NCBI GenBank assembly: GCA_040876265.1
Contig: JBBDPN010000002.1
Span: forward strand, 170,510 to 234,509
Direction of reading: 5' to 3'
DNA from: Candidatus Woykebacteria bacterium
GTDB taxonomy: Bacteria; Patescibacteriota; Microgenomatia; Woykebacterales; RBG-16-39-9b
Length of the DNA stretch: 64,000 nt
Positions 2,969 through 45,465 of the stretch are shown here, one piece after another. Within the stretch, counting starts at the first letter, position 1. Every line of letters begins with the position of its first letter. The position numbers and the translations under genes were made by a program. The notes under the pieces are model-generated. The model was not told the origin of the DNA. It saw nothing but the letters and a program-made list of their open reading frames with translations, and did no database searches.

Positions 2969-4618
2969 TTGCTAAGCTTAAAGTTAGAGATATTCTATAT
3001 GGAAGAGCAGTTGCCCTCACAAAAGAAGTCTTTTTTCCGAAGAGAATCACTTTACCTTGTAGTTGTATTGATCGCTGCTATTATTGTCGGCGTACTTGTA
3101 ATATTTCGCCTCAACACCACTTCCACTACAACCCAAAGCGCTGATTATGTGGAAAATCTTCCCAAGGACCAAGTTACTGTAGGAGTTTTAGGGACGATCT
3201 CAGGGCTGTATCCAACCGTCCCCTTTGATGTGGATTCGACATCAATAAACAGTAACATGTTCGAAGGACTCACCCAGATCCGAAACGGAAGATTAGAGCC
3301 AGCTCTAGCTGAAAGCTGGACCAATCCTGACAATTTGACCTGGCGTATCAAATTACGTAGCGATGCAAAATTTCATAATGGCGAGGCGCTAGAAGCCAGC
3401 GATGTTAAATATACCATTGAAGAAGCGAAAAAACATGAGGATTGGAGAGACGGGGTTCTGAACTCCATAGCGGCCAGAATTGATCGGGTGGAAGTTGTTG
3501 ACGAGGCGACTGTCCAACTGCAAACTAAAACACCCGACGCCACCCTTCTTTACTGGTTAGTGTTTCTATTTATCCTTTCGGAAGATCAGATCAAAAAAGA
3601 TGGGCTGGACAAGGCAGTAGGCACCGGCCCCTACAAATTGGTTTCAATAAATGAAAAACAGATTACTTTGCAAGCAAATAATGATTATTGGGCGGGGGCG
3701 CCTAAGGTTAAAAAACTAGTTTATAAGACTTTTGAAGACGATGAGGCTTTAGCAGGTGGATTGGAAAGTGGTGAGGTTGATCTCGCCCTTTTATTTGTAA
3801 CTACCCACAACAGTCGGCTGGAAAAGAAAGGTTTTAGGATTGTTTCGGTAAGAAGTGGGGACATAACCTTTTTTGGCTTTGATATCAATAGTAAAAAAGC
3901 AGCCCATGTAAATACGGAAACAAACCCTTTCGCCAGTCTTGATGTACGTAAGGCAATATTGCTAGCGATTGACATCAATAAAGCGCTGGAGGCGACTAAC
4001 GTTGAGGGGAAGCCGGTGAGCCAGTTTGCGGTGCCGGAGCTGATAGGTTATAACCGCAGTCTTAAAAGACCGGTCACAAATATTACTGAAGCCAAAAACC
4101 TACTTGTCAAAGCCGGCTTCCCTGATGGTTTTAAAGTTACTCTGGATATCGATGAGCCGTCAAAAAGGTTAGGAGAGGAGGTTAAGAAACAACTGGCCCA
4201 AATAAATATAGAGGTGGAGTTAAACACTTACACCGACTTCCAGAGCTATTTTGAACGGTTGACAACTGACTCATCATTTTTTGCACTAGCCTATGCGCCT
4301 GACACTTTAGACTCGGTAGATCTATTAGAGAGCTTTTTCCACACAGATGGATTTAACAACTTGAAGGGTTTTTCAGATAAGGATATCGACAGCTTGCTAG
4401 AGAAAGCCCTATCGACATTTAACACAGCCGAAAGAGCTAAATTGACCCAAGAGATTCATAAAGCAGTTATGGAGAAACTTCCATCAATTCCTTTTTACAC
4501 AAGAGTCGACCATTATGTAATCAAGGATGATGTAGCCTTCAAACCGGCCCCACCGTTCTCATTCCTATCTGGCTACGAGATTTCCGGCCGGCAAAAAGCG
4601 ACAGAAGTTAGCCAATAA
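2969..4618 (+). CDS. ABC transporter substrate-binding protein, family 5 (peptide/nickel type), N-terminal membrane anchor
   Basis: N-terminal TM helix followed by SBP_bac_5-like architecture (GTGPYKLVS and related motifs). Stop is adjacent to the downstream kinase start. Confidence 0.7.
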   Translation: MLSLKLEIFYMEEQLPSQKKSFFRRESLYLVVVLIAAIIVGVLVIFRLNTTSTTTQSADYVENLPKDQVTVGVLGTISGLYPTVPFDVDSTSINSNMFEGLTQIRNGRLEPALAESWTNPDNLTWRIKLRSDAKFHNGEALEASDVKYTIEEAKKHEDWRDGVLNSIAARIDRVEVVDEATVQLQTKTPDATLLYWLVFLFILSEDQIKKDGLDKAVGTGPYKLVSINEKQITLQANNDYWAGAPKVKKLVYKTFEDDEALAGGLESGEVDLALLFVTTHNSRLEKKGFRIVSVRSGDITFFGFDINSKKAAHVNTETNPFASLDVRKAILLAIDINKALEATNVEGKPVSQFAVPELIGYNRSLKRPVTNITEAKNLLVKAGFPDGFKVTLDIDEPSKRLGEEVKKQLAQINIEVELNTYTDFQSYFERLTTDSSFFALAYAPDTLDSVDLLESFFHTDGFNNLKGFSDKDIDSLLEKALSTFNTAERAKLTQEIHKAVMEKLPSIPFYTRVDHYVIKDDVAFKPAPPFSFLSGYEISGRQKATEVSQ

Positions 4619-4619
4619 G

Positions 4620-6107
4620 ATGCTTCCTCACAACTTCCTTAGCCCTCGTAGGAGTAGTTTGCGGGTAAAATTCTCTTTGGCAGCGGTTTTAATCTTTTTA
4701 GTAATTTTTTCTATCACATCCTTTGTTCTAATTCGCCAGAACATAGATTCTCAGAAAAACTCGCTATTAGCCCGCGCAAATACCTTTGCTGGTCTAGCTA
4801 CCAAACCGATCGGAGACGATTATACATTGTATTTTGAGTCTGGTTATTATAAATTTCGCGAGAGTCTCCAAGATATATTTGCACTCAATGAAGACATTAC
4901 TCGGGCTCAGATTATATCTGTCGATGGCGAAGTTTTTTTTGATACTTTTTATTTAGATTTAGCCGAGTCGCCATCACCAAAAAAAATTGACGAACCCCGC
5001 CTCCTGATAGCAGTTAGATCAAATAGCCTCACCGGTATAGCGGACCAAGGTGGCAGCATTACCCAAATAATTGTTCCGTACAACGATGATTTTGGAGCGA
5101 GACCGTTTTCGATCCGTTATTTTATATCTTATGAATCGGTTTACGAAAACATAAATAGTACTATCCTAACCACCTTATTACTGAGCGTATTGGTACTGAT
5201 TTTGGCCGTCCTGGCCATATCAGCGCTGGTTAATTTTTCTATACTTTCACCGCTAGGTAAGGTGGTTGCTGCGGCCAAGAAAATTAGCGAAGGCGATGTT
5301 AACACGGAGATAAAGCTTTCCACGGGTGACGAGCTGGAAGATATAGCCAGCTCTCTTGATCAAATGACGGTTACCCTGCGAAAAAATATTGAGGATCTTA
5401 AAGCGCTGGATAAACTAAAAAATGAATTTGTCTTTCTGGCATCGCATAACCTGCGAACACCACTGACAGTAGTAAAGGGATATGTGGATAACTTGAAAAA
5501 CGCGGATCTAGGGAAAAAAGCCGCTGCTGATTTGGAAAAGATCTCTGAAAGCACCCGCGAACTTGAAAGTATGGTGGAATCATTGATAAACCTAGTTTCA
5601 CTGGAAAAGGAAAAACAACTGACTATCAAAAATGAGGTTGATCTGAAAGACTTAATCAGGCAAATCACCCTGGACGCGAAGAGTAAATTAAACGAAAAGA
5701 GATTGAGCCTGGTTTTTGAGACGCCCGAGGAAAAGCTGCCAAAAGTTTCGGTAGATCAGAAGAGAATAAGACAAGCGTTTGAAAATTTGATTGACAACGC
5801 AATTAAATTTAACAAGGAAAACGGGAAAATAGTTATCGGCCTGCGTAAAAAGGGGGACAGCGTTGTAATTTCTATAGCTGACACCGGGATTGGAATATCC
5901 GAGGGGGAAAAGGCCCGAGTATTTCAAAAATTCCATCGAGCTACTGATGTTCTAACGTACAATTACGAAGGAATCGGTCTTGGGCTATACTTGGCAAAGT
6001 TAATTATTGAGGCCCACCAAGGGAAAATATGGTTCGACTCTACCATTGGAAAGGGAACCACCTTTTATGTTCAGCTACCCATTAAGGCAAAAGTGCAAGG
6101 GGGTTGA
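4620..6107 (+). CDS. sensor histidine kinase (2 TM, HAMP, HisKA, HATPase_c)
   Basis: H-box FLASHNLRTPLT, N-box DNAIKFN, G-boxes DTGIGI/GLGLYLAK, two TM segments. Confidence 0.85.
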   Translation: MLPHNFLSPRRSSLRVKFSLAAVLIFLVIFSITSFVLIRQNIDSQKNSLLARANTFAGLATKPIGDDYTLYFESGYYKFRESLQDIFALNEDITRAQIISVDGEVFFDTFYLDLAESPSPKKIDEPRLLIAVRSNSLTGIADQGGSITQIIVPYNDDFGARPFSIRYFISYESVYENINSTILTTLLLSVLVLILAVLAISALVNFSILSPLGKVVAAAKKISEGDVNTEIKLSTGDELEDIASSLDQMTVTLRKNIEDLKALDKLKNEFVFLASHNLRTPLTVVKGYVDNLKNADLGKKAAADLEKISESTRELESMVESLINLVSLEKEKQLTIKNEVDLKDLIRQITLDAKSKLNEKRLSLVFETPEEKLPKVSVDQKRIRQAFENLIDNAIKFNKENGKIVIGLRKKGDSVVISIADTGIGISEGEKARVFQKFHRATDVLTYNYEGIGLGLYLAKLIIEAHQGKIWFDSTIGKGTTFYVQLPIKAKVQGG

Positions 6108-6902: not shown

Positions 6903-6976
6903 TGGAGGCGTCGAGCGGATTCGAACCGCCGTAAAAGGTTTTGCAGACCTCTACCTAGCCACTCGGTCACGACGCC
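6903..6976 (-). tRNA. tRNA-Cys (anticodon GCA), CCA encoded
   Basis: Reverse complement reads GGCGTCG...CGACGCCTCCA with a 7-bp acceptor stem. Anticodon loop is CTGCAAA. T-arm is GCGGTTCGAATCCGC. Confidence 0.8.
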
Positions 6977-18194: not shown

Positions 18195-18257
18195 CCGTAG
18201 AATCCTTACCCTCGAAGAACCCGAAGAAATCACCGAGGAGTAACGACACACTATAGG

Positions 18258-18286
18258 TTGACATTCGAACCTATTTCCTGTATAAT
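18258..18286 (+). promoter_or_regulatory. perfect consensus sigma70 promoter TTGACA-N17-TATAAT
   Basis: TTGACA at 18258-18263. Exact 17-nt spacer. TATAAT at 18281-18286. About 40 nt upstream of the next ORF and its ribosome-binding site. Confidence 0.5.
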
Positions 18287-18328
18287 TCCCATCATCAAAT
18301 TAGCTAAATAACCTTGAAAGGATAGAGA

Positions 18329-18592
18329 ATGTTCGACGAACCACGTCAAGGGAGCATCGTCGGAAAAGTACTAAATGTACTCCTCGACCACATTGATGAG
18401 TTCGTGACGGAGGATCATATCTTAACAGAGGCTAGCCTCTGGGAGGAACACCTCCATCCGAACTTTCAGCGACAGCGTGTAGTCGCTGCGATGACTACCC
18501 TGCGGGGCAGGTACCGCTGGAAGATCGACACGAAGCGTAGTGGTGAGTACCCGAGCGAGGGTAACACCGCCTACCGACTACCTACACAGTAA
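18329..18592 (+). CDS. hypothetical small protein (ORFan), G+C-rich islet
   Basis: 87-aa ORF. AAGGA ribosome-binding site. Codon usage is clearly G+C-richer than the flanking genes. Confidence 0.4.
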   Translation: MFDEPRQGSIVGKVLNVLLDHIDEFVTEDHILTEASLWEEHLHPNFQRQRVVAAMTTLRGRYRWKIDTKRSGEYPSEGNTAYRLPTQ

Positions 18593-18606
18593 GGAGGGAA
18601 ACTGTC

Positions 18607-18903
18607 ATGCCGTGCAACAACAGGACCGTTCAGGAAGTGGTGGAGGAATGGTTGCGACAAGCAAGTCGAAGCCTCGAAAACCAGCTTCCTTGGAAGAGAG
18701 AGGAACTGCTGGTAGAGGCGATACGGGAGTCACTCGGTGATCCTCGCCTAGCTTTTGCCACTAGAGTCGGGGGAAAGCTGGTCATCCCGCCACCGCACTC
18801 GATACCGGTCCCGCAAGAAATGGAGAGACGCCGCCTCATTTTGAGGATGGCGTTGACTCTGCTCACGGAGATGGAATTACTCCGTTATCAAAACCAACCC
18901 TAG
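18607..18903 (+). CDS. hypothetical small protein (ORFan), G+C-rich islet
   Basis: 98-aa ORF. AAGGAGGG ribosome-binding site 6 nt upstream. Followed by a hairpin (GAAACGACC ... GGTCGTTT) with a T-run at about 18990-19045. Confidence 0.4.
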   Translation: MPCNNRTVQEVVEEWLRQASRSLENQLPWKREELLVEAIRESLGDPRLAFATRVGGKLVIPPPHSIPVPQEMERRRLILRMALTLLTEMELLRYQNQP

Positions 18904-19083
18904 GGCGAGCGTTGAAGATGCTGGAAACAGCGATGCCACGACCCCTAGGAGCTCCTAAGTAAATCAAGGGATTGATTTTCTTAGGAGGAGAAACGACCCC
19001 GTGTAGTCTTGTATGAAGTGGTGGTCGTTTTTCTTTTTCCTTCACTTCGCTCAGGATAAGTTATCTGGTAAAATGGTTTATCC

Positions 19084-22038
19084 ATGAGTAAAGTACTAGA
19101 GGGTTTGAACAAACAGCAAAAAGATGCAGTAATGACGACGGAAGGACCATTACTGATAATCGCTGGAGCTGGGACTGGAAAAACCACCGCCATTACCCGC
19201 CGCATCGCTTACCTTATTGAGCAAAAATTGGCTAAACCATCAGAAATTCTCGCACTCACCTTTACCGAAAAAGCAGCCGGAGAGATGGAAGAAAGGGTCG
19301 ATATTCTGGTTCCCTATGGTTACATTGACACTTGGATCTCTACATTTCACTCTTTTGGCAACCGCGTCTTGCAAGAAAACGCTATAGATCTAGGTCTATC
19401 CCCGGACTTTAAAGTCCTCACCCGCCCATCCCAAATTCTTTTTTTCCAACAAAACCTTTTTGCTTTTGATCCCTCTTATTATCGGCCACTTAGCAATCCA
19501 ACGAAGTTTATCGAAGCGATTTTGCAATTCATCAGTCGCTGTAAGGATGAAGACATTTCACCGGCAGACTACAAAAAATATGTCAGAAAATTGAAAAAAA
19601 CTACTCCAAGGAAACTTGGTTTAACGAAGAAGGAATGGGAGACCGAGGTCAAACGACAGGAAGAACTTGCTAATGTCTACGAAAAGTACGAGAAACTAAA
19701 AACAAATGCTGGACTTGTGGATTTTGGCGATCAGATTACTTTGACACTTAGACTTTTTCGCGAAAAACCAGGGGTTCTCAGAAAATACCAAAAACAATTT
19801 AAATACGTCCTTGTGGACGAATTCCAGGACACCAACTGGGCTCAGGACGAACTCGTCAAATTACTGGTAGAACCAAAGGATAATATCTGTGTGGTGGCAG
19901 ATGACGACCAGAGTATTTACCGTTTTCGCGGCGCGGCCATCAGCAACGTGCTGGAGTTTAAAAAGACTTACCCAAAAGCAAAAATAGTTACTCTGCTGGA
20001 AAACTTTCGCTCCGGGCAACCGATTCTCGACTCCGCCTACCGTCTGATTCGTCATAACGATCCAGATAGGCTTGAAGTACGTGAAAAAATTGATAAAAAA
20101 TTAAAATCAGTAAAAAAGAATCCGCCGGCTGGTGGATCTGGCCCGCCAAAAGAAATTTATGCTGAGACTCTTAGCGTTGAGGCTGATGCTATCGCAAAGA
20201 AAATTAAAGATTTAACAAAAAGGGAGAAGCTGGCCTACAAAGATATCGCAATTTTAGTGCGGGCAAATGCCCACGCCGATCCCTTTTTGCGAGCTCTCAA
20301 CATGAAAGGAATTCCCCACAAATTTGTTGGCAGTAGCGGCCTATACGCCCAGGAAGAAGTGAAGCTTTTAATCTCTTTCTTAACTGCAATTTCCAATTTC
20401 GACGATTCGCCAAACCTTTACAACCTTGCTTCGAGTGAAATTTATAAATTGCCTCTGAAAGACGCGATCGCGGTGATGGATTGGGCAAAAAGAAAAAGCA
20501 AGACCCTCCGTTATGTCCTCACCAAAATTGACGATCTAGAAGAGATCGAGCTAGGTGCGGAGGCGAAAGAGATAATTAAAAAGATAAACAGCGATTTAGA
20601 TTCTCTCGTTGATTTGTCCCGTAAAGAACCAGTCGGCCGGGCGCTCTATGAATTTTTGAAGAGAACTGGGTTCTTATCGCGGCTTGAACAAAAAGGCAAC
20701 GTGGAGGCGGAGATAAAGATCCAAAATATTGCCAGGTTTTTCGATAAAATCCGCGAATTTTCCGAGATTGCCCAAAATGAATCGGTGCGCGCCTTTACCG
20801 ATTGGCTCGCGGTTATGAGAGGTGCGGGAGACGACCCCGCAACTAGCGAATTTGATCCGGACACGAATGCAGTAAATATCATGACTGTTCACTCTGCCAA
20901 GGGTTTGGAATTCCCAGTGGTTTTTCTGGTGAATTTGGTTTCAGACAGGTTTCCCTCAAGAGAGAGGAGAGACGTTATTGCTATTCCGGCCGAACTAATA
21001 AAAGAAACACTTCCGGCTGGGGACTTTCACATGCAGGAGGAAAGAAGACTTTTTTACGTGGGTATGACGCGGGCGATGGATCATTTGTTTCTGACCTGGT
21101 CGCGTGATATTGGCGGAAAAAGGACCAAGAAAGTTTCTCCTTTTGTTCTTGAGGCACTGGATAAAACAGTCAGCAGTGCTCTGGTGGAAAAAACGAGCGC
21201 GCTAGAAAAAATCCACCGTCACGCTGGCCATACAGCCTCGGCTAGCAACCTACCTCAAGCAGGCGTAAAAGTAATTAAACTTACTCAAGGAGCAGTTGAT
21301 GATTACCAAACGTGCGCTTATAAGTATCGCTACGTTCATGTTTTGAGACTGCCTATTCTTCGTCACCACGCTGTGGTTTACGGAGCCGCGCTCCACATCG
21401 CTGTGGCCGCTTTTTACCGGGCCAAAATGGCTGGTAAAAAAATGCCACTCGCAGCACTCCTAGCAATTTTTGAAAAAGCCTGGACTGGCGAAGGCTTTCT
21501 TTCACAAGAGCATGAGGAGAGAAGATTAGCACAAGGGAAAAAGATCTTGGCTGATTTTTGGAGACGTGAAAAAGATAAAAAACAAAAACCCACCTTTATT
21601 GAAAAGGATTTTCGTTTCAGCGTCGGCGGAACTATTGTTACCGGTAGGTTCGATCGGGTGGATGTCGGCAGAAAAAAGGTGAAAATAATTGATTTCAAAA
21701 GTACTGAGGGCAGAAGCAAGGAAGAGATAGAAAAAAACGCCAAAGAAAGTATCCAACTTCGCGTCTATGCGTTGGCTTATTACAAAAATAGTAATCCGCC
21801 GGTAGTTCCAGATTTTGTCGGCATTTACGATCTTGATAGCGGAGTAGTGGGTGGTTACAAACCTACAAAGAAACATCTTGAAAAAACAGAAGAAGAGATC
21901 AAAGAAACTGCAAAAGGAATTAAAAATAATCTACAAGAGGACAATTTCCCAGCCAACCCAAAATACTTTGGTAGAGTCCCGGCGTGTTATTACTGTGCAT
22001 ACAATAGTATTTGCCCTTTCTCTTTAGTTAGAAGATAA
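19084..22038 (+). CDS. UvrD-family superfamily-1 helicase fused to a C-terminal RecB/Cas4-like PD-(D/E)XK nuclease with Fe-S cysteines
   Basis: Walker A GAGTGKTT. UvrD motifs (VDEFQDTN, TVHSAKGLEFP). C-terminal GRFDRVD ... IIDFKSTEG ... QLRVYALA nuclease motifs. Cysteines C...CYYCAYNSIC. Confidence 0.8.
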   Translation: MSKVLEGLNKQQKDAVMTTEGPLLIIAGAGTGKTTAITRRIAYLIEQKLAKPSEILALTFTEKAAGEMEERVDILVPYGYIDTWISTFHSFGNRVLQENAIDLGLSPDFKVLTRPSQILFFQQNLFAFDPSYYRPLSNPTKFIEAILQFISRCKDEDISPADYKKYVRKLKKTTPRKLGLTKKEWETEVKRQEELANVYEKYEKLKTNAGLVDFGDQITLTLRLFREKPGVLRKYQKQFKYVLVDEFQDTNWAQDELVKLLVEPKDNICVVADDDQSIYRFRGAAISNVLEFKKTYPKAKIVTLLENFRSGQPILDSAYRLIRHNDPDRLEVREKIDKKLKSVKKNPPAGGSGPPKEIYAETLSVEADAIAKKIKDLTKREKLAYKDIAILVRANAHADPFLRALNMKGIPHKFVGSSGLYAQEEVKLLISFLTAISNFDDSPNLYNLASSEIYKLPLKDAIAVMDWAKRKSKTLRYVLTKIDDLEEIELGAEAKEIIKKINSDLDSLVDLSRKEPVGRALYEFLKRTGFLSRLEQKGNVEAEIKIQNIARFFDKIREFSEIAQNESVRAFTDWLAVMRGAGDDPATSEFDPDTNAVNIMTVHSAKGLEFPVVFLVNLVSDRFPSRERRDVIAIPAELIKETLPAGDFHMQEERRLFYVGMTRAMDHLFLTWSRDIGGKRTKKVSPFVLEALDKTVSSALVEKTSALEKIHRHAGHTASASNLPQAGVKVIKLTQGAVDDYQTCAYKYRYVHVLRLPILRHHAVVYGAALHIAVAAFYRAKMAGKKMPLAALLAIFEKAWTGEGFLSQEHEERRLAQGKKILADFWRREKDKKQKPTFIEKDFRFSVGGTIVTGRFDRVDVGRKKVKIIDFKSTEGRSKEEIEKNAKESIQLRVYALAYYKNSNPPVVPDFVGIYDLDSGVVGGYKPTKKHLEKTEEEIKETAKGIKNNLQEDNFPANPKYFGRVPACYYCAYNSICPFSLVRR

Positions 22039-22140
22039 AACTTGACTTAGCTAGGCAGAAGTTGCCTAGCGCAGGATACGTGAATACTCGAGAAATTAAG
22101 GAGCCCGCAAATTTCGAGCGTATGTAGTATCCTATAGGAT

Positions 22141-41326: not shown

Positions 41327-41378
41327 GTGTAAAAAGGGACGACTCGAGATGAGCCGCCCTCTTGGATAGGAGCCTCGA

Positions 41379-41729
41379 TTAGTTGGCGGAAACTAATTTC
41401 CGGACTTCTTTCAGCACTTCATGCTTTGGTACCCACCGATCCGCTCCCGCCTCCACGATTTGTTGGCCAAAGTAGGAGCTCCTAGAGGAGGCTAGGATGA
41501 TCCCGTCAAATTGGGCTCGAAACCCACTCGTTAGTTGCTGAGTGTTCGGTTTCGTGGTGTGGAGGCAGGCATCCATCACGATGATGTCGATGGTTCCGAG
41601 GTATTCTCGAAATAGAACTCTGGCTTCCGCCTCGGTCGTAGCGACAATTAAGTCGCAATAGCTACGAAGCCCTATTTCGACAACCTCGATGAAATCATCA
41701 TCGTCTTCGACTAGCAACACTTTTTGCAT
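41379..41729 (-). CDS. stand-alone response-regulator receiver (CheY-like) domain protein
   Basis: LLVEDDDDF, DIIVMD and conserved Lys. 116 aa with no output domain. Confidence 0.6.
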   Translation of the reverse strand: MQKVLLVEDDDDFIEVVEIGLRSYCDLIVATTEAEARVLFREYLGTIDIIVMDACLHTTKPNTQQLTSGFRAQFDGIILASSRSSYFGQQIVEAGADRWVPKHEVLKEVRKLVSAN

Positions 41730-42028
41730 CGGATCTCCCCCCCAAGCTTAGATGACAGAACTGTTATAGGATTATAACACCCCTTACCACCAACGTGAGT
41801 GTACTAATAATTGAAAATTGTTTGTTGATAATTATTCAAATTTACTATAGCTTATTGACAGAAGCGGTAATTTGGTGTACAAAGCTCTTGCCAGATGTCC
41901 TACAAAACCCTGTTTTTTATAGTTCTTCTTCTTGTTGGTGTAGTCCTAGCCTTCCTCTTTCTAGCTGGATTTGTCCGCCAGTCTTAAATTAGCAAACACT
42001 TGAAATATCTGCTAAAATCCTCTTCATA

Positions 42029-43123
42029 ATGTCAACAAAAAAAGATTATTATGACGTCCTCGGCGTCTCCAAAACAGCCTCAGATTCTGAAATAAAGAGC
42101 GCTTATCGTAAAAAAGCACGGGCTCATCACCCGGATGTAGATAAATCTGCGGACGCCGAGAAAAAATTTAAAGAAATAAACGAGTCTTATCAAGTGCTTT
42201 CTGACCCTCAGAAACGAGAAGCCTACGACCGTTTTGGTCACGATGCCTTTCGCACTGGTGGAGCCGGAGCCCCAGGGGGCTTCAGCTATCAGTACTCCCC
42301 AGGTGTAGATTTCAACTTTGACTTTGGTGGGTTTGCCGATCCCTTTGAAATATTCGAGCAGTTTTTTGGTGCTCGTTCTCCGTTTGGTGGTTCAGCGCGG
42401 CGTGGACCGAGAACAGGCGAGGACCTTCATTACGAGATTATCATCCCCTTTGAGCAAGCGGCTTTTGGTGTAGAAAAGAAAGTTGAGCTGGAGCGGCACG
42501 AAAACTGCTCGGTGTGCGGTGGTTCTGGAGCAGAGCTGGGAAGCAAAAAGACTAAGTGCCCTACATGCAATGGAAGAGGTCGTATCCAGCAAGCAACCCA
42601 ATCTATTTTTGGTAACATAGTTACATCACGTACGTGTCCTACTTGCGGTGGTGAGGGTGAAGCGATAGAGAAAAAATGCCACCAGTGTAAAGGTTCTGGC
42701 CGTACAAAGGCAATCGCCGAGAAGACAATTAAGATCCCCGCTGGAGTAGATGATGGCGATACTATTCGGTTTCAAGGCTTGGGCGAGGCCGGGGAACGCG
42801 GCGGCGGCTACGGTGATCTTTATCTTTCGATCCGTGTCTTGCCTCACAAAGAGTTCAAACGCCGCGGGTTTGACGTTTACTATGAACAGCCGATTTCTTT
42901 TTCCCAGGCCGCTCTGGGGGATACGATCGAAGTGACAACTCTTGACGGAGAAATGAAATTAAAAATTCCCGAAGGTACCCAGACCGGAACGGAATTCCGC
43001 TTAAAAGATAAAGGTATAAAGCACGATAGTTCTCGTGGTGACCAATACGTGCGTGTCAAAGTACAAACCCCGACACGGCTTTCTTCAAAACAGAAAGAAG
43101 CGTTGAAAAATCTAAGGGATTAA
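42029..43123 (+). CDS. dnaJ: molecular chaperone DnaJ
   Basis: J-domain with HPD. G/F region. Four CxxCxGxG zinc-finger repeats. C-terminal domains. Confidence 0.9.
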   Translation: MSTKKDYYDVLGVSKTASDSEIKSAYRKKARAHHPDVDKSADAEKKFKEINESYQVLSDPQKREAYDRFGHDAFRTGGAGAPGGFSYQYSPGVDFNFDFGGFADPFEIFEQFFGARSPFGGSARRGPRTGEDLHYEIIIPFEQAAFGVEKKVELERHENCSVCGGSGAELGSKKTKCPTCNGRGRIQQATQSIFGNIVTSRTCPTCGGEGEAIEKKCHQCKGSGRTKAIAEKTIKIPAGVDDGDTIRFQGLGEAGERGGGYGDLYLSIRVLPHKEFKRRGFDVYYEQPISFSQAALGDTIEVTTLDGEMKLKIPEGTQTGTEFRLKDKGIKHDSSRGDQYVRVKVQTPTRLSSKQKEALKNLRD

Positions 43124-43143
43124 ATAAGGCGAGGAATGAAAGA

Positions 43144-43196
43144 GGCGCAGAGTCGCTCGCGAGCGTCTTCGGAGAGACTCTGCGCCCCTGGTTTTC
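43144..43196 (+). terminator. intrinsic terminator after dnaJ
   Basis: 11-bp stem GGCGCAGAGTC/GACTCTGCGCC (43144-43154 and 43176-43186) enclosing the palindrome GCTCGCGAGC. Followed by GGTTTT. Confidence 0.5.
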
Positions 43197-44188
43197 CCGC
43201 GGACCTCATCGATAGAAACGGCAGTCAGCCATGGAGGTTCTACCGAGGGAGGCGTTGATCAAGCAGAGTCTTTGGCCTTACGTCGACCTGCAATGTCCAA
43301 AGGATCTGCCAGAGAGTTTTTGCCTCGCGAGCTAGCGCCAAGCTCTAGCGAAACAGATGTTAACGAAAACTCTTTGCCCACGATCCCACAACACATCCCT
43401 CTCCTACTGCGGCATTTGCCGATGAGGACGTGCAGGCAAATAGTAGTGGGGTATTTTACATGTTTGGGAAGTAAATGTCAAAATATATTGATAAGACTTT
43501 CGAAATTGGTAATAGAAAAGTTGAAGGCGCATCAAAGAGGATATTACACCTCACTGATGCGCCTACTCGATTGCTGACGCTTTCCAGGCCGCCCCAACCC
43601 GAAAAGCGTCATATCCACCATTGGCGGCGGACTAGAAGGAGGTCGCCCGATACTTTCCAGTTAAGGAGCACCGGTTTGATTTCCTAAGGGGTATAAGGAA
43701 AGATTCCAAGATACCCCGGTTGATTTCAGACGCTCCTGAGTCTGAGTGATTGCTCGCCAGGGGGTGCGGCGGTGAGACAGAGGAGCGTCGAACCACGACA
43801 GTTGCGGCTTCTGTCGAGGCCAAATTTAAGCCAATCGGTCAAAGAGTTTGAGCTGTTGCGACCGATCGGGTCTGCTCTATTGTCAGGCAGCAGACCATTC
43901 CTACTAGCAGGGTATTAGGCGTTGTCGAAGATTGCTAAATTGCCTAATCCGTGCTCGTACCGCTGGTATATAAAAGATAAGTGCTGAAGCTGAGTGTAAA
44001 CTCCAGTTGGCCCGGGCGGGAGGGGGATGCCCATAAACTGGAAGCCGTACCCAGCATATTACAAACCTCTGCTCGAGTAAATCGAACAGAAGTCAGCTAC
44101 CCCTTCCTCGTTTCTTCACCTTAACTTAACCACTTTTTTGCTTGATTGTCAATATATGTTTGTCGGTCAAGATTTTTCGCCTAGTTAC

Positions 44189-44224
44189 TTGATGCCCCAA
44201 CGCACTAAGTGCTTGGGGCATCAA
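44189..44224. promoter_or_regulatory. 36-bp near-perfect palindrome TTGATGCCCCAA-CGCACTAAGTGC-TTGGGGCATCAA upstream of nusA
   Basis: 12-bp perfect arms with a spacer that is itself palindromic. Could form a 16-bp hairpin or act as an operator. Confidence 0.4.
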
Positions 44225-44355
44225 CCCTTTCGTAGTCTTTAGCGAAGGAGGGTTGACCAAAGCGCGCTAATTATTTATTATTGGTACACTAAAATTTATT
44301 AACTTTTTAAAAGTGGGATAAACTCCCACTTTCTTAGGTTGAGGAGGTCAAAAAC

Positions 44356-45465
44356 GTGGCGCTTAGGACAGAATTCGCAGCGGCTCTAAACCAAGCAGCA
44401 GCTGAACGAGGAGTAGAACCCGAAGAGGTTGTTGACATAATTAAAGAGGCAATAAAAACTGCCTACAAAAAGGATTATGGTGGAGAAGTGGAAGGCTTTG
44501 AGGTTGAGATAGATCAGGAAAGCGGCGCGGCAAAAATTTTTGAAAATAAAAAAGACGTCACTCCCGCTGGCTTCGGTCGTATCGCTGCTCAGACAGCTAA
44601 ACAAGTGCTGCTCCAACGTATCCGTGAGGCTGAAAAGGGAGCGATTTTTTCAGAATTTGAAAAAAGAGTTGGTACCATCGTCAACGGAATGATCCAGAGA
44701 CTAGAAGGCCCCAATATAGTGGTGGACCTGGGAAAGACGGAAAGCACTATGCCCGTGGTAGAAAAAATGCCTGGCGAAGATTACCGGCTAAACCAACGAT
44801 TGAAATTTTATATTGTTGGGATCCGCGAGGGAGCTAGAGGTCAAGAAATTGTTGTTTCCAGAGCTCATAAAGGTTTGGTCGAAGGTTTATTCAAACTTGA
44901 AGTACCAGAAATTGGTTCGGGGATAGTTGAAATAAAAGGTATCGCTCGCGAAGCTGGTAGCAGAAGTAAAGTCGCAGTCTCATCTCGTCAGGCTGGGGTT
45001 GACCCGGTGGGTAGCTGTGTTGGCCAAAAGGGAGTAAGAGTCCAGGCGGTGATAGCAGAACTTGGCCACGAAAAAATAGACGTTATTGCTTACAGCGACG
45101 ACCCGGCCAAGTTTGTTGCCGCGGCTCTTTCACCAGCTACAGTTGACAAGGTGAGTGTTGATGAAAAAACGAAAACAGCTTCGGTCGAAGTACCCGACGA
45201 TCAACTCTCTTTAGCAATTGGTAAGGACGGACAAAATGTTCGTCTGGCTGCAAAATTGACGGGTTGGAGGATTGATATAAAGGGAGCTGAGAAACTGCAA
45301 GAAGTAGAAAAGGTTCCAAGTGAGAGTGAAAAGCCAAAGAAAGCAAGAAAGACGGCATCCAAGACAAAAAAAGCGACAAAACCCAAGAAGAGCAAAACCA
45401 GTACGAGTAAGGGTAAGAAAAAAGTAGCAGAAAAACAACCAGCAGAAGCTACCGATGAAAAATAA
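44356..45465 (+). CDS. nusA: transcription termination/antitermination factor NusA with lysine-rich C-terminal tail
   Basis: NusA N-terminal, S1 and two KH domains. GTG start 8 nt after GAGGAGG. C-terminal KPKKARKTASKTKK tail. Confidence 0.9.
   Translation: MALRTEFAAALNQAAAERGVEPEEVVDIIKEAIKTAYKKDYGGEVEGFEVEIDQESGAAKIFENKKDVTPAGFGRIAAQTAKQVLLQRIREAEKGAIFSEFEKRVGTIVNGMIQRLEGPNIVVDLGKTESTMPVVEKMPGEDYRLNQRLKFYIVGIREGARGQEIVVSRAHKGLVEGLFKLEVPEIGSGIVEIKGIAREAGSRSKVAVSSRQAGVDPVGSCVGQKGVRVQAVIAELGHEKIDVIAYSDDPAKFVAAALSPATVDKVSVDEKTKTASVEVPDDQLSLAIGKDGQNVRLAAKLTGWRIDIKGAEKLQEVEKVPSESEKPKKARKTASKTKKATKPKKSKTSTSKGKKKVAEKQPAEATDEK

What the first reader, a model, noticed from the sequence alone, without database searches (positions are those of the whole stretch)
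43124..44355. About 1.2 kb G+C-elevated, ORF-poor, palindrome-rich gap between dnaJ and nusA: candidate structured RNA locus
There is no convincing ORF in any frame, although G+C is clearly above the host background. In AT-rich genomes that usually flags structured RNA genes. Elements present: an 11-bp-stem terminator right after dnaJ; multiple additional inverted repeats; a 36-bp near-perfect palindrome (44189-44224) about 130 nt upstream of nusA. There is also a segment CCACGACAGTTGCGGCTTCTGTCG (43794-43817) reminiscent of the RNase P RNA P4 3' strand (CCACGACAGAACCCGGCUUAUCGG in E. coli), but I could not assemble a full RNase P or tmRNA by eye. It could be a novel or divergent ncRNA, a decayed acquired gene, or a regulatory leader of the nusA-infB operon.
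Basis: partly seen in the sequence, partly recalled or inferred. Interest (0 to 1): 0.6.

Follow-up and report, generated by a model that had tools for sequence, protein, structure and literature searches.

The report
Unannotated structured RNA gene beside nusA
The 1.2-kb "empty" stretch between dnaJ and nusA in this Candidatus Woykebacteria (candidate phyla radiation) genome is not a degenerate RNase P or tmRNA. It mainly holds a roughly 600-nt highly folded non-coding RNA gene on the opposite strand, with its own promoter and terminator, that matches no described RNA family.

Summary
The gap is real: 1232 nt, no credible ORF, G+C 0.49 against 0.43 for the window. It is a mosaic. The main part (about 43515-44118, minus strand) is a candidate structured non-coding RNA.

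- **Promoter:** TTGACA-N14-TGn-TTAAGT, present in all 13 loci examined with a pattern search.
- **Terminator:** a hairpin followed by a U-run that appears only on the minus strand.
- **Structure:** helices keep pairing through G.U and compensatory changes on the minus strand only. P5 pairs in 86/88 cells on minus against 67/88 on plus.
- **Conserved features:** a CCCUCCC hairpin loop and the near-invariant motif UCUCAUCGCCGCACCCCC.
- **Known families:** Rfam 15 matches nothing here or in seven relatives.

In relatives the same spacer also carries 0-7 minus-strand tRNA genes behind a second promoter. The window keeps that promoter (43453-43481) but has a unique folded 300-nt segment with no tRNA. 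The 36-bp palindrome lies in a 64-nt insertion not seen in any aligned relative, inside the nusA -35 box. The RNase P-like string is the complement of a small hairpin, so the resemblance is chance. Only about 44253-44355 is a nusA promoter and leader.

Function is unknown. My best guess is a trans-acting or scaffold RNA with anti-Shine-Dalgarno-like loops, in a tRNA-adjacent context like GOLLD/ROOL.

The parts
43141..43189 (.). Hairpin after dnaJ with an 11-bp perfect core. It is followed by GGUUUUCC on the plus strand and UUCAUUCC on the minus strand, so it is a likely bidirectional terminator for dnaJ and for minus-strand unit X.
   Evidence: I1; read directly from the sequence
43125..43447 (-). 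Unit X. A folded segment of about 300 nt downstream of the tRNA-array-type promoter. It has no tRNA and no homologue in any fetched locus. Its nature is unknown.
   Evidence: z -4.5. nhmmer finds no homologue. No tRNA by ARAGORN or Rfam.
43453..43481 (-). Sigma-70-type promoter TTGACA-N17-TAAAAT. In relatives the same promoter drives the minus-strand tRNA arrays.
   Evidence: 11 of 12 matches. Same motif upstream of tRNAs in L001, L161, L162 and L165.
43510..43564 (-). Intrinsic terminator of the large RNA: hairpin 43525-43564 followed on the minus strand by UCAACUUUUCUAUUA.
   Evidence: (I2). Most other relatives printed have a hairpin plus U-run on the minus strand at the same relative position (L085 and L002 lack the U-run).
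43515..44118 (-). Candidate large structured non-coding RNA, about 600 nt, G+C 0.52. Ends are inferred from the promoter and terminator.
44124..44152 (-). Promoter of the large RNA: -35 TTGACA (44152..44147), TG (44132..44131), -10 TTAAGT (44129..44124). This is the most conserved block of the spacer.
   Evidence: (pattern present in all 13 loci examined)
44093..44118 (-). Purine-rich 5' leader (GGUGAAGAAACGAGGAAGGGGUAGCUGA). In the window's MFE fold it pairs with the ACCUCCUUC segment near the 3' end.
44000..44045 (-). P2/P3 hairpin. Its apical loop AUCCCCCUCCC (44028..44018) carries the conserved CCCUCCC (anti-Shine-Dalgarno-like) motif. The stems differ in sequence between relatives while the shape is kept.
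   Evidence: loop unpaired probability 0.66-1.0
43976..43986 (-). Conserved single-stranded motif M1, CAGCACUUAUC.
43831..43869 (-). Hairpin P5 (CCGAUCGGUC / GACCGAUUGG).
   Evidence: 86/88 cells paired on minus (20 G.U), 67/88 on plus
43796..43816 (-). Hairpin P6 (CGACAG-AAGCCGCAA-CUGUCG).
43729..43789 (-). Helix P7 (43789..43775 with 43743..43729) enclosing the near-invariant motif M2, GUCUCACCGCCGCACCCCC (43778..43760).
   Evidence: (I6), 63, 66, 67: P7 82/88 cells paired on minus, 73/88 on plus; five pairs with changes on both sides
44044..44052 (-). GGGUACGGC, a possible long-range partner (P1) of M2. Tentative: on the minus strand it shows A.C mismatches in several relatives, and it is missing in L178.
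43565..43728 (-). 3' extension shared only with L166. It has hairpins at 43688-43717 and 43575-43611 and the sequence ACCUCCUU (43643..43636), which is identical to the 16S rRNA anti-SD core.
44189..44252 (.). 64-nt insertion not seen in any aligned relative, carrying the 36-bp palindrome (44189-44224). It is flanked by a 4-nt TTGA repeat (44189-44192 and 44253-44256) and sits inside the nusA -35 box, which the repeat regenerates.
   Evidence: absent from L001, L085, L088; unique in the window
44253..44281 (+). nusA promoter TTGACC-N17-TATTAT.
   Evidence: conserved in L001, L085 and L088
44310..44336 (+). nusA 5'-UTR hairpin AAAGUGGGA-UAAAC-UCCCACUUU followed by CUUAGGUU. It is terminator-like and may be an attenuator. 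It lies just upstream of the RBS GAGGAGG (44341-44347).
   Evidence: found upstream of nusA in at least 26 related loci

Best explanation
Most of the gap (about 43515-44118) is a gene for a structured non-coding RNA of about 600 nt on the minus strand, divergent from nusA.

Shown or read from sequence:
- It starts at a conserved extended -10 promoter (44152..44124).
- It has a multi-helix core (P2/P3, P5, P6, P7) that displays a CCCUCCC loop and the near-invariant motif UCUCAUCGCCGCACCCCC.
- It ends at an intrinsic terminator (43564..43510).
- It belongs to a lineage-restricted, fast-evolving family found in a subset of Ca. Woykebacteria, 0.3-0.6 kb long with modular insertions.
- In relatives it sits directly upstream of a variable minus-strand tRNA array. 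In the window a tRNA-less folded unit X takes the array's place.

Inferred, with low confidence:
- The RNA acts in trans. It may pair through its C-rich, anti-Shine-Dalgarno-like loops with G-rich ribosome-binding sites, or it may be a self-contained scaffold RNA linked to tRNA arrays, as is suspected for GOLLD and ROOL.

The rest of the gap is the dnaJ terminator, a lineage-specific palindromic insertion, and the nusA promoter and leader.
For: **Transcription signals**
- TTGACA-N14-TGnTnnnnT is present on the minus strand in all 13 loci examined with the pattern. It is the best conserved block of the spacer.
- A hairpin followed by a U-run lies at the far end on the minus strand in the window and most other relatives printed. 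Of the exceptions, L085's nearest hairpin lacks a U-run, and L002 has neither terminator nor promoter before its tRNA.

**Homology**
- The window aligns with L166 over 43550-44165. The core aligns with L001, L085, L088, L092, L178 and L179.
- Covariance model R1 recovers exactly these loci at E 1e-20 to 1e-32 and nothing else in 0.58 Mb.

**Structure**
- P5, P7 and a mini-stem pair in 92.5% of cells. Eight pairs have changes on both sides. 0/500 shuffles reach the observed covariation score, and slid controls pair in 27-43% of cells.

**Strand**
- P5 pairs in 86/88 cells on minus (20 G.U) against 67/88 on plus. P7 pairs in 82/88 against 73/88.
- RNAalifold energy is -77.6 on minus against -63.3 on plus.

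**Folding stability**
- z is -6.6 for the window transcript and -2.3 to -6.2 for eight relatives, with G+C 0.52-0.59.

**Non-coding character**
- 34 of 38 indels between close pairs are not multiples of 3, and substitutions show no codon periodicity.
- There are only chance-level Pfam hits and no gene calls in any assembly.

**C-rich motifs**
- CCUCC occurs 25 times against 9.7 expected across 13 transcripts. The P3-loop copy is predicted unpaired.

**Not a known family**
- Rfam 15 is negative in the window and in seven relatives.
Against: - There are no expression data, so the promoter, terminator and transcript ends are all inferred from sequence.
- Only eight distinct core sequences from close relatives were available, so the covariation statistics are weak. 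Relatedness alone can inflate the shuffle test.
- Relatives with 85-89% identical NusA (L161, L162/L164, L165, L002) keep the promoter, terminator, G+C richness and the GCCGCACC motif. Their interiors are otherwise unalignable, so constraint on most of the sequence is loose.
- The element is absent from some relatives, where the dnaJ-nusA gaps are 73-145 nt (L004, L093, L182). It is therefore dispensable or relocated.
- The proposed long-range helix P1 fits the plus strand better (G.U on plus, A.C on minus).
- The -10 hexamer lacks the usual A at position 2, and the consensus promoter scan did not list it.
- The proposed function rests only on motif enrichment and on context.
Confidence: 0.72

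Rival explanations
1. The gap is a non-functional, fast-evolving spacer. It would be debris from a turnover-prone tRNA-array hotspot. G+C richness and hairpins would be left over from decayed tRNA genes and terminators, and only the promoters and terminators would be under selection.
For: - Spacer length varies from 73 to about 1480 nt. tRNA content varies from 0 to 7 genes of different identities among close relatives.
- Interiors are unalignable between some close relatives.
- Unit X is unique to this genome.
- Several odd tRNA-like sequences in relatives go uncalled by ARAGORN.
Against: - Helices P5 and P7 stay paired through 31 G.U cells and eight double changes, on one strand only.
- M2 and the P3 loop are nearly invariant.
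- There is no tRNA-like hit even at E<=10.
- Between L162 and L164, most changes seen by eye fall in loops or keep the predicted pairs.
- A dedicated promoter and terminator would be pointless for junk in a genome of about 1 Mb.
Confidence: 0.12
2. The element acts in cis. It would be either a long plus-strand leader or riboswitch of the nusA-infB operon, or a minus-strand leader or processing element of the downstream tRNA operon, and not an independent RNA.
For: - It lies immediately upstream of nusA.
- In L002 the RNA runs into tRNA-Gly with no intervening terminator or promoter.
- GOLLD and ROOL are thought to be sometimes co-transcribed with tRNAs (PMC5737381).
Against: - The conserved nusA promoter lies downstream of the element.
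- Pairing statistics favour the minus strand.
- Many relatives keep the same nusA promoter and leader hairpin without the element.
- In the window and most other relatives printed, a terminator precedes a separate promoter for the tRNAs or for X.
Confidence: 0.08
3. It is a highly diverged member of a known RNA class that the models miss: RNase P RNA, tmRNA, 6S, SRP RNA, or a tRNA gene split by a divergent group I intron, as reported for Patescibacteria.
For:
- The size of 300-600 nt fits RNase P or tmRNA.
- PMC13011429 reports Patescibacteria tRNA introns that RF00028 and ARAGORN miss.
Against: - No Rfam family appears at E<=10 in the window, and none at the homologous place in seven relatives. 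ARAGORN finds no tmRNA.
- The P4-like string is on the wrong strand and is not conserved.
- There are no tRNA exon halves (D-arm, T-arm GGUUCGA) at either end of the transcripts.
- The element is absent from some relatives, which is unexpected for an essential RNA.
- Relaxed ARAGORN gives only one implausible call spanning the promoter and the palindrome.
Confidence: 0.04
4. It is the remnant of a protein-coding gene, or it holds small protein genes.
For: - A 101-aa ORF on the plus strand and a 45-aa minus-strand ORF (43259-43396) preceded by AGGAGAGGG exist.
Against: - ORFs and six-frame translations give only chance-level Pfam hits.
- No ORF here was called in any assembly.
- Indels are mostly not multiples of 3 and there is no codon periodicity.
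- The ATG-led frame in the core is broken by 1-nt indels between L085 and L088.
Confidence: 0.04

Closest known systems
GOLLD and ROOL (large 'ornate' bacterial RNAs of unknown function; Rfam RF01998, RF03087)
   Same: - Several hundred nucleotides long, multi-helix, and non-coding.
- Own transcription unit.
- Typically next to tRNA genes and possibly co-transcribed with them (PMC5737381).
- Patchy phylogenetic distribution and unknown function.
   Different: - No sequence or structure match to either model, even at E<=10.
- Smaller conserved core of about 200-300 nt.
- Restricted, so far, to a subclade of Ca. Woykebacteria.
- Not found in phage records or viral contigs.
- Oligomerisation was not tested.
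C-rich-loop regulatory sRNAs of Gram-positive bacteria (RsaE/RoxS type; from my own knowledge)
   Same: - Exposed C-rich loop motifs (CCCUCCC, CACCCCC, ACCUCCUU) complementary to Shine-Dalgarno sequences.
- Own promoter and Rho-independent terminator.
   Different: - Three to six times longer, with long-range helices.
- No homology.
- No target prediction or experimental support. The resemblance is only a shared motif type.
Bacterial RNase P RNA (RF00010/RF00011)
   Same: - Size range.
- A 24-nt string (43794-43817, plus strand) that resembles the 3' strand of P4.
   Different: - No covariance-model match.
- The string is the complement of a variable minus-strand hairpin.
- No CR-I GAGGAAAGUCC element.
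- The element is absent from some relatives.
rimP-nusA-infB operon leaders and NusA autoregulatory attenuators (from my own knowledge)
   Same: The short segment 44282-44355 is a conserved terminator-like hairpin between the nusA promoter and the RBS. It behaves like such a leader.
   Different: That segment is only about 75 nt. The large RNA lies upstream of the nusA promoter and on the other strand.

Membership tests
Bacterial RNase P RNA | Match to the Rfam covariance models (P1-P4 core, CR-I and CR-V sequences) | tested here: not met
   No hit at gathering score in the 64-kb window. No hit at E<=10 in 43000-44500 or at the homologous place in seven relatives.
Bacterial RNase P RNA | The P4 3' strand is conserved and on the transcribed strand | tested here: not met
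   The P4-like string is on the plus strand, while pairing statistics place the RNA on the minus strand. The string varies in relatives.
tmRNA | tRNA-like domain (acceptor stem, T-arm, CCA end) plus a tag reading frame | tested here: not met
   ARAGORN finds no tmRNA in the window or relatives. Rfam tmRNA models give no hit. No T-loop precedes the 3' strand of the closing helix.
tRNA gene interrupted by a group I intron (Patescibacteria type, PMC13011429) | tRNA exon halves flanking an intron with a group I core | tested here: not met
   No RF00005 or RF00028 hit, even partial, at E<=10. ARAGORN with introns finds nothing at its default threshold. No D-arm or T-arm sequences at the transcript ends. 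Caveat: the paper's own model (gpI_bact_tRNA) was not available.
GOLLD / ROOL / OLE / raiA / HEARO (large structured RNAs in Rfam) | Match to the family covariance model | tested here: not met
   No such family listed at E<=10.
GOLLD / ROOL (context) | Location next to tRNA genes | tested here: met
   In L001, L002, L092, L161, L162 and L164 the RNA lies directly upstream of minus-strand tRNA genes. L165 has only an uncalled tRNA-like sequence there. This is a resemblance in context, not membership.
Independent bacterial ncRNA gene (generic) | Own promoter and intrinsic terminator on the same strand | tested here: met
   Conserved -35 and extended -10. Hairpin plus U-run on the minus strand in the window and most other relatives printed. 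Sequence inference only.
Independent bacterial ncRNA gene (generic) | Secondary structure conserved through compensatory change | tested here: met
   92.5% of cells paired, eight pairs with double changes, 0/500 shuffles reach the covariation score; strand asymmetry. Only eight sequences, so the support is moderate.
Independent bacterial ncRNA gene (generic) | Detected transcript | not testable with these tools
   No expression data available.
nusA operon leader | Lies between the nusA promoter and the start codon, on the nusA strand | tested here: not met
   This applies to the large RNA: the nusA promoter at 44253-44281 is downstream of it. The feature is met only by the 44282-44355 hairpin segment.

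The most novel reading that the evidence does not exclude
This is the first sighting of a new family of large structured RNAs specific to CPR (Woykebacteria) bacteria. It is made from its own strong promoter back-to-back with the nusA promoter. It travels as a module with a variable tRNA array and exposes anti-Shine-Dalgarno-like loops and an invariant GCCGCACCCCC motif. It would be either a translation-targeting regulator or sponge, or a GOLLD/ROOL-like self-assembling scaffold, in organisms with minimal genomes.
Probability: 0.45. Interest if true: 0.7.

Novelty: new variant of a known kind. Interest (0 to 1): 0.55.

Why it matters
CPR/Patescibacteria genomes are about 1 Mb and densely coding. 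A 0.3-0.6-kb strongly folded RNA with a dedicated promoter and terminator is an expensive thing to keep in such a genome. Orphan large RNAs (OLE, GOLLD, ROOL, raiA) have repeatedly led to unexpected biochemistry, and none has been described as specific to CPR bacteria.

A tRNA-adjacent large RNA in an uncultured, host-dependent lineage would give a second, independent instance of the unexplained pairing of large RNAs with tRNA genes. It would also be a compact candidate for structure work.

On the practical side, the result shows three things:
- The G+C-rich long-spacer heuristic also works in a 43% G+C CPR genome.
- The dnaJ-nusA spacer is a hotspot of tRNA-array turnover.
- Similarity to RNase P judged by eye can be misleading.

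Tried and rejected
- **RNase P, tmRNA, SRP, 6S, tRNA, riboswitch or large ornate RNA.** Rfam 15 at gathering score on the 64-kb window found only tRNA-Cys at 6906-6976. At E<=10 on 43000-44500 it found only chance sRNA and miRNA hits. At E<=10 on seven relatives it found nothing at the homologous place.
- **ARAGORN.** Nothing in the gap. With introns allowed and an 85% threshold it gave one implausible 'tRNA-Arg with a 97-nt intron' spanning the promoter and the palindrome.
- **tRNA split by a group I intron (PMC13011429).** No exon halves and no intron core.
- **Protein remnant.** Pfam on 9 ORFs and on all six frames gave only chance-level hits. Exact look-up of 10 ORFs found none. Indel and periodicity tests were negative. 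A full translated search against all proteins was not run, so that the expensive searches were kept in reserve.
- **Plus-strand RNA or nusA leader.** This was my own first model, a closing helix GGGGGUGCGGC/GCCGYACCC with G.U pairs on plus. I abandoned it after finding the minus-strand promoter and terminators and running the strand test.
- **Small conserved ORF starting at AUAUG in the core.** Broken by 1-nt indels between L085 and L088.
- **boxA-like antitermination site in the P5 loop.** Half of it is buried in the stem and it is absent from L092, so I dropped it.
- **Phage or mobile origin.** No match in 50,697 phage records. Seven viral 17-mer hits are in the range I estimated for chance, and the covariance model rejected all of them.
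- **Repeat family for the palindrome.** It is a single copy in the window.
- **Structural alignment of the 5' domain with MAFFT.** This failed, so P2/P3 rests on single-sequence folds.
- **A full-length covariance model.** Not attempted, because the alignment exceeds the tool's 400-column limit and calibration-time cap.
- **Collection scans.** No database-wide search for the RNA itself could be done.
Full report
**1. The observation**

The window comes from a Candidatus Woykebacteria (CPR/Patescibacteria) genome. Its NusA is 100% identical to an NCBI MAG protein of that name. The closest genome-collection loci are Woykebacteria-like MAGs.

dnaJ (42029-43123) and nusA (44356-45465) are both on the plus strand and are separated by 1232 nt. 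The evidence that the gap is non-coding is as follows.

- The longest ORF is 101 aa with a TTG start.
- ORFs of 40 aa or more have no Pfam match apart from one chance-level hit (E 0.055).
- Full six-frame translations give only two chance-level hits, at E about 0.1.
- None of ten ORFs occurs as a called protein in about 15 billion public predictions, although NusA from the same contig does.

G+C is 0.487 for the gap and 0.52 for its main part, against 0.428 for the window. These are the 96th and 98th percentiles. The genome is not really AT-rich, and dnaJ itself is 0.48.

The hairpin after dnaJ and the 36-bp palindrome are real. The region folds much better than shuffled sequence, with z about -7.

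Rfam 15 finds nothing relevant at gathering score or at E<=10. ARAGORN finds no tRNA or tmRNA.

**2. What relatives show: the spacer is modular**

I collected dnaJ-nusA spacers from genome contigs, metagenome contigs and exact-protein look-ups of NusA homologues. Spacer length ranges from 73 nt (L004) to about 1480 nt (L162).

Many spacers hold minus-strand tRNA genes, from 0 to 7, with different identities even among close relatives. These sit behind a TTGACA-N17-TAAAAT promoter. The window keeps this promoter at 43481..43453, scoring 11 of 12 in the consensus scan. Downstream of it (43447..43125, minus strand) lies a folded segment (z -4.5) with no tRNA and no homologue in any fetched locus. 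I call it unit X and cannot explain it.

**3. The main element**

Between that promoter and the nusA promoter lies a G+C-rich stretch that is homologous across several loci.

- The window and L166 align over window 43550-44165 (75% mean column identity; 64% over the transcript).
- L179/L180 also align across the conserved core, though without the 3' extension shared by the window and L166.
- The core aligns with L001, L085 (the same contig as L167), L088, L092 and L178.

The best conserved block of the whole spacer reads, on the minus strand, TTGACA-N14-TG-n-T(T/A)(A/T)(A/G)(G/T)T. This is a -35 box plus an extended -10. It is present in all 13 loci examined with the pattern. In the window it lies at 44152..44124.

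At the other end, the window and most other relatives printed have a strong hairpin followed by a U-run on the minus strand only. L085's nearest hairpin lacks a U-run, and L002 has no terminator before its tRNA. In the window this is 43564..43525 followed by UCAACUUUUCUAUUA. In L166, which has no tRNA module, the same hairpin abuts dnaJ.

The inferred transcripts are about 230-620 nt long. The window's is about 600 nt.

**4. Structure and strand**

Two helices could be aligned reliably in eight distinct sequences.

| Helix | Window coordinates | Cells paired, minus strand | Cells paired, plus strand |
|---|---|---|---|
| P5 | 43869..43831 | 86/88 (20 G.U) | 67/88 |
| P7 | 43789..43775 with 43743..43729 | 82/88 (11 G.U) | 73/88 |

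On the minus strand the tested structure as a whole is 92.5% paired. Eight of its 25 pairs show changes on both sides. 0/500 column shuffles reach the observed covariation score, and sliding the partners drops pairing to 27-43%. Because G.U pairs become A.C mismatches on the other strand, the RNA is on the minus strand. RNAalifold energies agree, at -77.6 on minus against -63.3 on plus.

P7 encloses the near-invariant motif UCUCAUCGCCGCACCCCC (M2; window 43778..43760).

Upstream of P5 lie two more features. One is a two-tier hairpin (P2/P3; window 44045..44000) whose stems differ in sequence between relatives while its loop keeps CCCUCCC. The other is a conserved single-stranded CAGCACUUAUC (M1).

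A possible long-range pairing of M2 with GGGUGCGGC (44052..44044) is doubtful. It shows no compensation, it has A.C mismatches on the minus strand, and that segment is missing in L178.

A covariance model of the P5-P7 domain finds the eight core loci plus L180 (a copy of L179) at E 1e-20 to 1e-32. It gives only weak partial hits in L161 and L165, and nothing else in 0.58 Mb, including the seven viral contigs that share a 17-mer.

The element is non-coding: 34 of 38 indels between close pairs are not multiples of three, and substitutions show no codon phase.

**5. Divergent forms**

L161, L162/L163, L164/L081, L165 and L002 have NusA 81-89% identical to the window. They keep the promoter, the purine-rich 5' leader, the GCCGCACC motif (seen in L161, L162/L164 and L165) and the high G+C (0.54-0.59). 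All but L002 also keep the terminator. Their folding is significant, with z from -2.3 to -6.2. Their interiors, however, cannot be aligned with the core form.

L162 and L164 are 88% identical. By eye, most of the differences between them fall in apical loops or keep the predicted pairs.

The element is missing where the spacer is short (L004, L093, L182) and where the tRNA promoter directly abuts the nusA promoter (L005, L006, L084, L086, L087, L094).

So this is a lineage-restricted, modular, fast-evolving RNA and not a universal housekeeping RNA.

**6.

- The 'RNase P P4-like' string (43794-43817) is the complement of the small hairpin P6 (CGACAG-AAGCCGCAA-CUGUCG). Its stem varies in relatives, so the resemblance is chance.
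- The 36-bp palindrome lies in a 64-nt insertion that is absent from L001, L085 and L088. The insertion is bounded by a 4-nt TTGA repeat and sits inside the nusA -35 hexamer, which the repeat restores.
- The nusA promoter TTGACC-N17-TATTAT (44253-44281) and a terminator-like leader hairpin (44310-44332) are conserved across Woykebacteria-type loci. Only this last stretch of about 100 nt is a 'leader of the nusA-infB operon'.

**7. How it may work**

Shown or read directly from the sequence:
- the promoter-like and terminator-like signals;
- strand-specific conserved helices;
- conserved loops;
- the position next to tRNA arrays.

Inferred:
- that it is transcribed as an independent RNA.

In the window's minimum-free-energy fold, the purine-rich 5' leader pairs with ACCUCCUUC near the 3' end. 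That would tie the two ends of the RNA together.

CCUCC occurs 25 times against 9.7 expected over 13 transcripts, whereas GGAGG is not enriched. The P3 loop copy is predicted to be unpaired.

My best functional guess is an RNA that presents anti-Shine-Dalgarno-like loops, acting as a regulator or sponge of ribosome-binding sites. I give this about 15-20%. The alternative is a scaffold RNA functionally tied to the tRNA array. The nearest parallel there is GOLLD/ROOL, which are also large, of unknown function, and often lie next to tRNAs (PMC5737381). Neither family's model matches.

**8. Verdict**

The gap is a genuine structured-RNA locus, but on the opposite strand and of a kind not in Rfam 15. 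I put 0.72 on 'independent structured ncRNA gene of a new family'. The main rival, at 0.12, is a loosely constrained spacer in a tRNA-array hotspot.

Interest is moderate, at 0.55. It is a plausible new orphan RNA class in CPR bacteria. It is narrow in distribution, rests on eight core sequences, and has no expression data.

Noticed in passing
window 44310-44336 (and upstream of nusA in L001-L006, L081, L088, L090-L093, L097, L099, L161-L165, L169, L178-L183): A conserved hairpin AAAGUGGGA-loop-UCCCACUUU followed by a U-rich run lies between the nusA promoter and the RBS in nearly all Woykebacteria-type loci. It looks like an intrinsic-terminator attenuator and could be the site of NusA autoregulation.
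   Followed up: partly
window 44189-44256: A 64-nt insertion carrying the 36-bp palindrome is flanked by a 4-nt TTGA direct repeat and sits inside the nusA -35 hexamer (TTGA|CC). The repeat regenerates the -35 box. It looks like a small hairpin element with a target-site duplication, present as a single copy in the window.
   Followed up: partly
window 43125-43481 (minus strand): The promoter that drives tRNA arrays in relatives is intact here. It is followed by a unique, well-folded segment of about 300 nt (z -4.5) with no tRNA and no homologue. The segment contains CUCAUCGGCAAAUGCCGCA, which is reminiscent of motif M2, two CCUCC motifs, and a 45-aa ORF (43259-43396) preceded by AGGAGAGGG.
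   Followed up: partly
relatives: L001 1174-1558, L005 9379-9749, L006 9169-9791, L086 342-1114, L087 107-562, L092 2569-2811, L161-L163: The dnaJ-nusA spacer is a hotspot of tRNA-array turnover. It holds 0-7 minus-strand tRNA genes whose identities differ between genomes with 80-89% identical NusA.
   Followed up: partly
L165 2590-2665; L169 about 3290-3370; L005 9379-9488; L001 1481-1558: There are odd tRNA genes. Two clear tRNA-like sequences are not called by ARAGORN (the L165 copy has not passed any detector; L169 was never scanned with Rfam). One Rfam tRNA hit is 110 nt long and may contain an intron. One tRNA was called with a 4-base anticodon (cgca). These may relate to the unusual Patescibacteria tRNAs described in PMC13011429.
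   Followed up: no
window 18195-19083: This is a second G+C-rich (0.51), strongly folding (z about -9 on plus) stretch with no ORF of 120 aa or more. It appears to hold two small ORFs with good RBSs (starts at 18330 and 18608) behind a TTGACA-N17-TATAAT promoter (18259-18287). It is possibly an acquired two-gene cassette. No Rfam family matches.
   Followed up: partly
window 41327-42028: The 702-nt dnaK-dnaJ spacer folds well on the minus strand (z about -6, from only 12 shuffles) and contains a 116-aa minus-strand ORF (41379-41729). Relatives have two small plus-strand ORFs there (L167 862-1593).
   Followed up: no
window 22046-22117 and L001 954-1025: A segment of about 72 nt just downstream of the ORF 19084-22038 is 76% identical, in reverse orientation, to the sequence just after dnaJ in L001. 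It may be a shared terminator or a small repeat element.
   Followed up: no
L001 5661-5776, L088 2007-2121, L161 5845-5957: Sub-threshold Rfam S15-leader (RF00114) matches of 18-28 bits (gathering score 39.5) lie upstream of rpsO in L161 (the L001 and L088 positions were not checked against gene calls). They suggest a diverged S15 autoregulatory leader in this clade.
   Followed up: no
L165 3395-3500, L166 3391-3500, L179 2385-2500, L088 about 5880-5995: Some relatives carry an extra conserved segment of about 110 nt (GGAGGAAAATAAAGCACCTGTCGTTTTCGATG...) between the nusA leader hairpin and the nusA start. The window lacks it.
   Followed up: no
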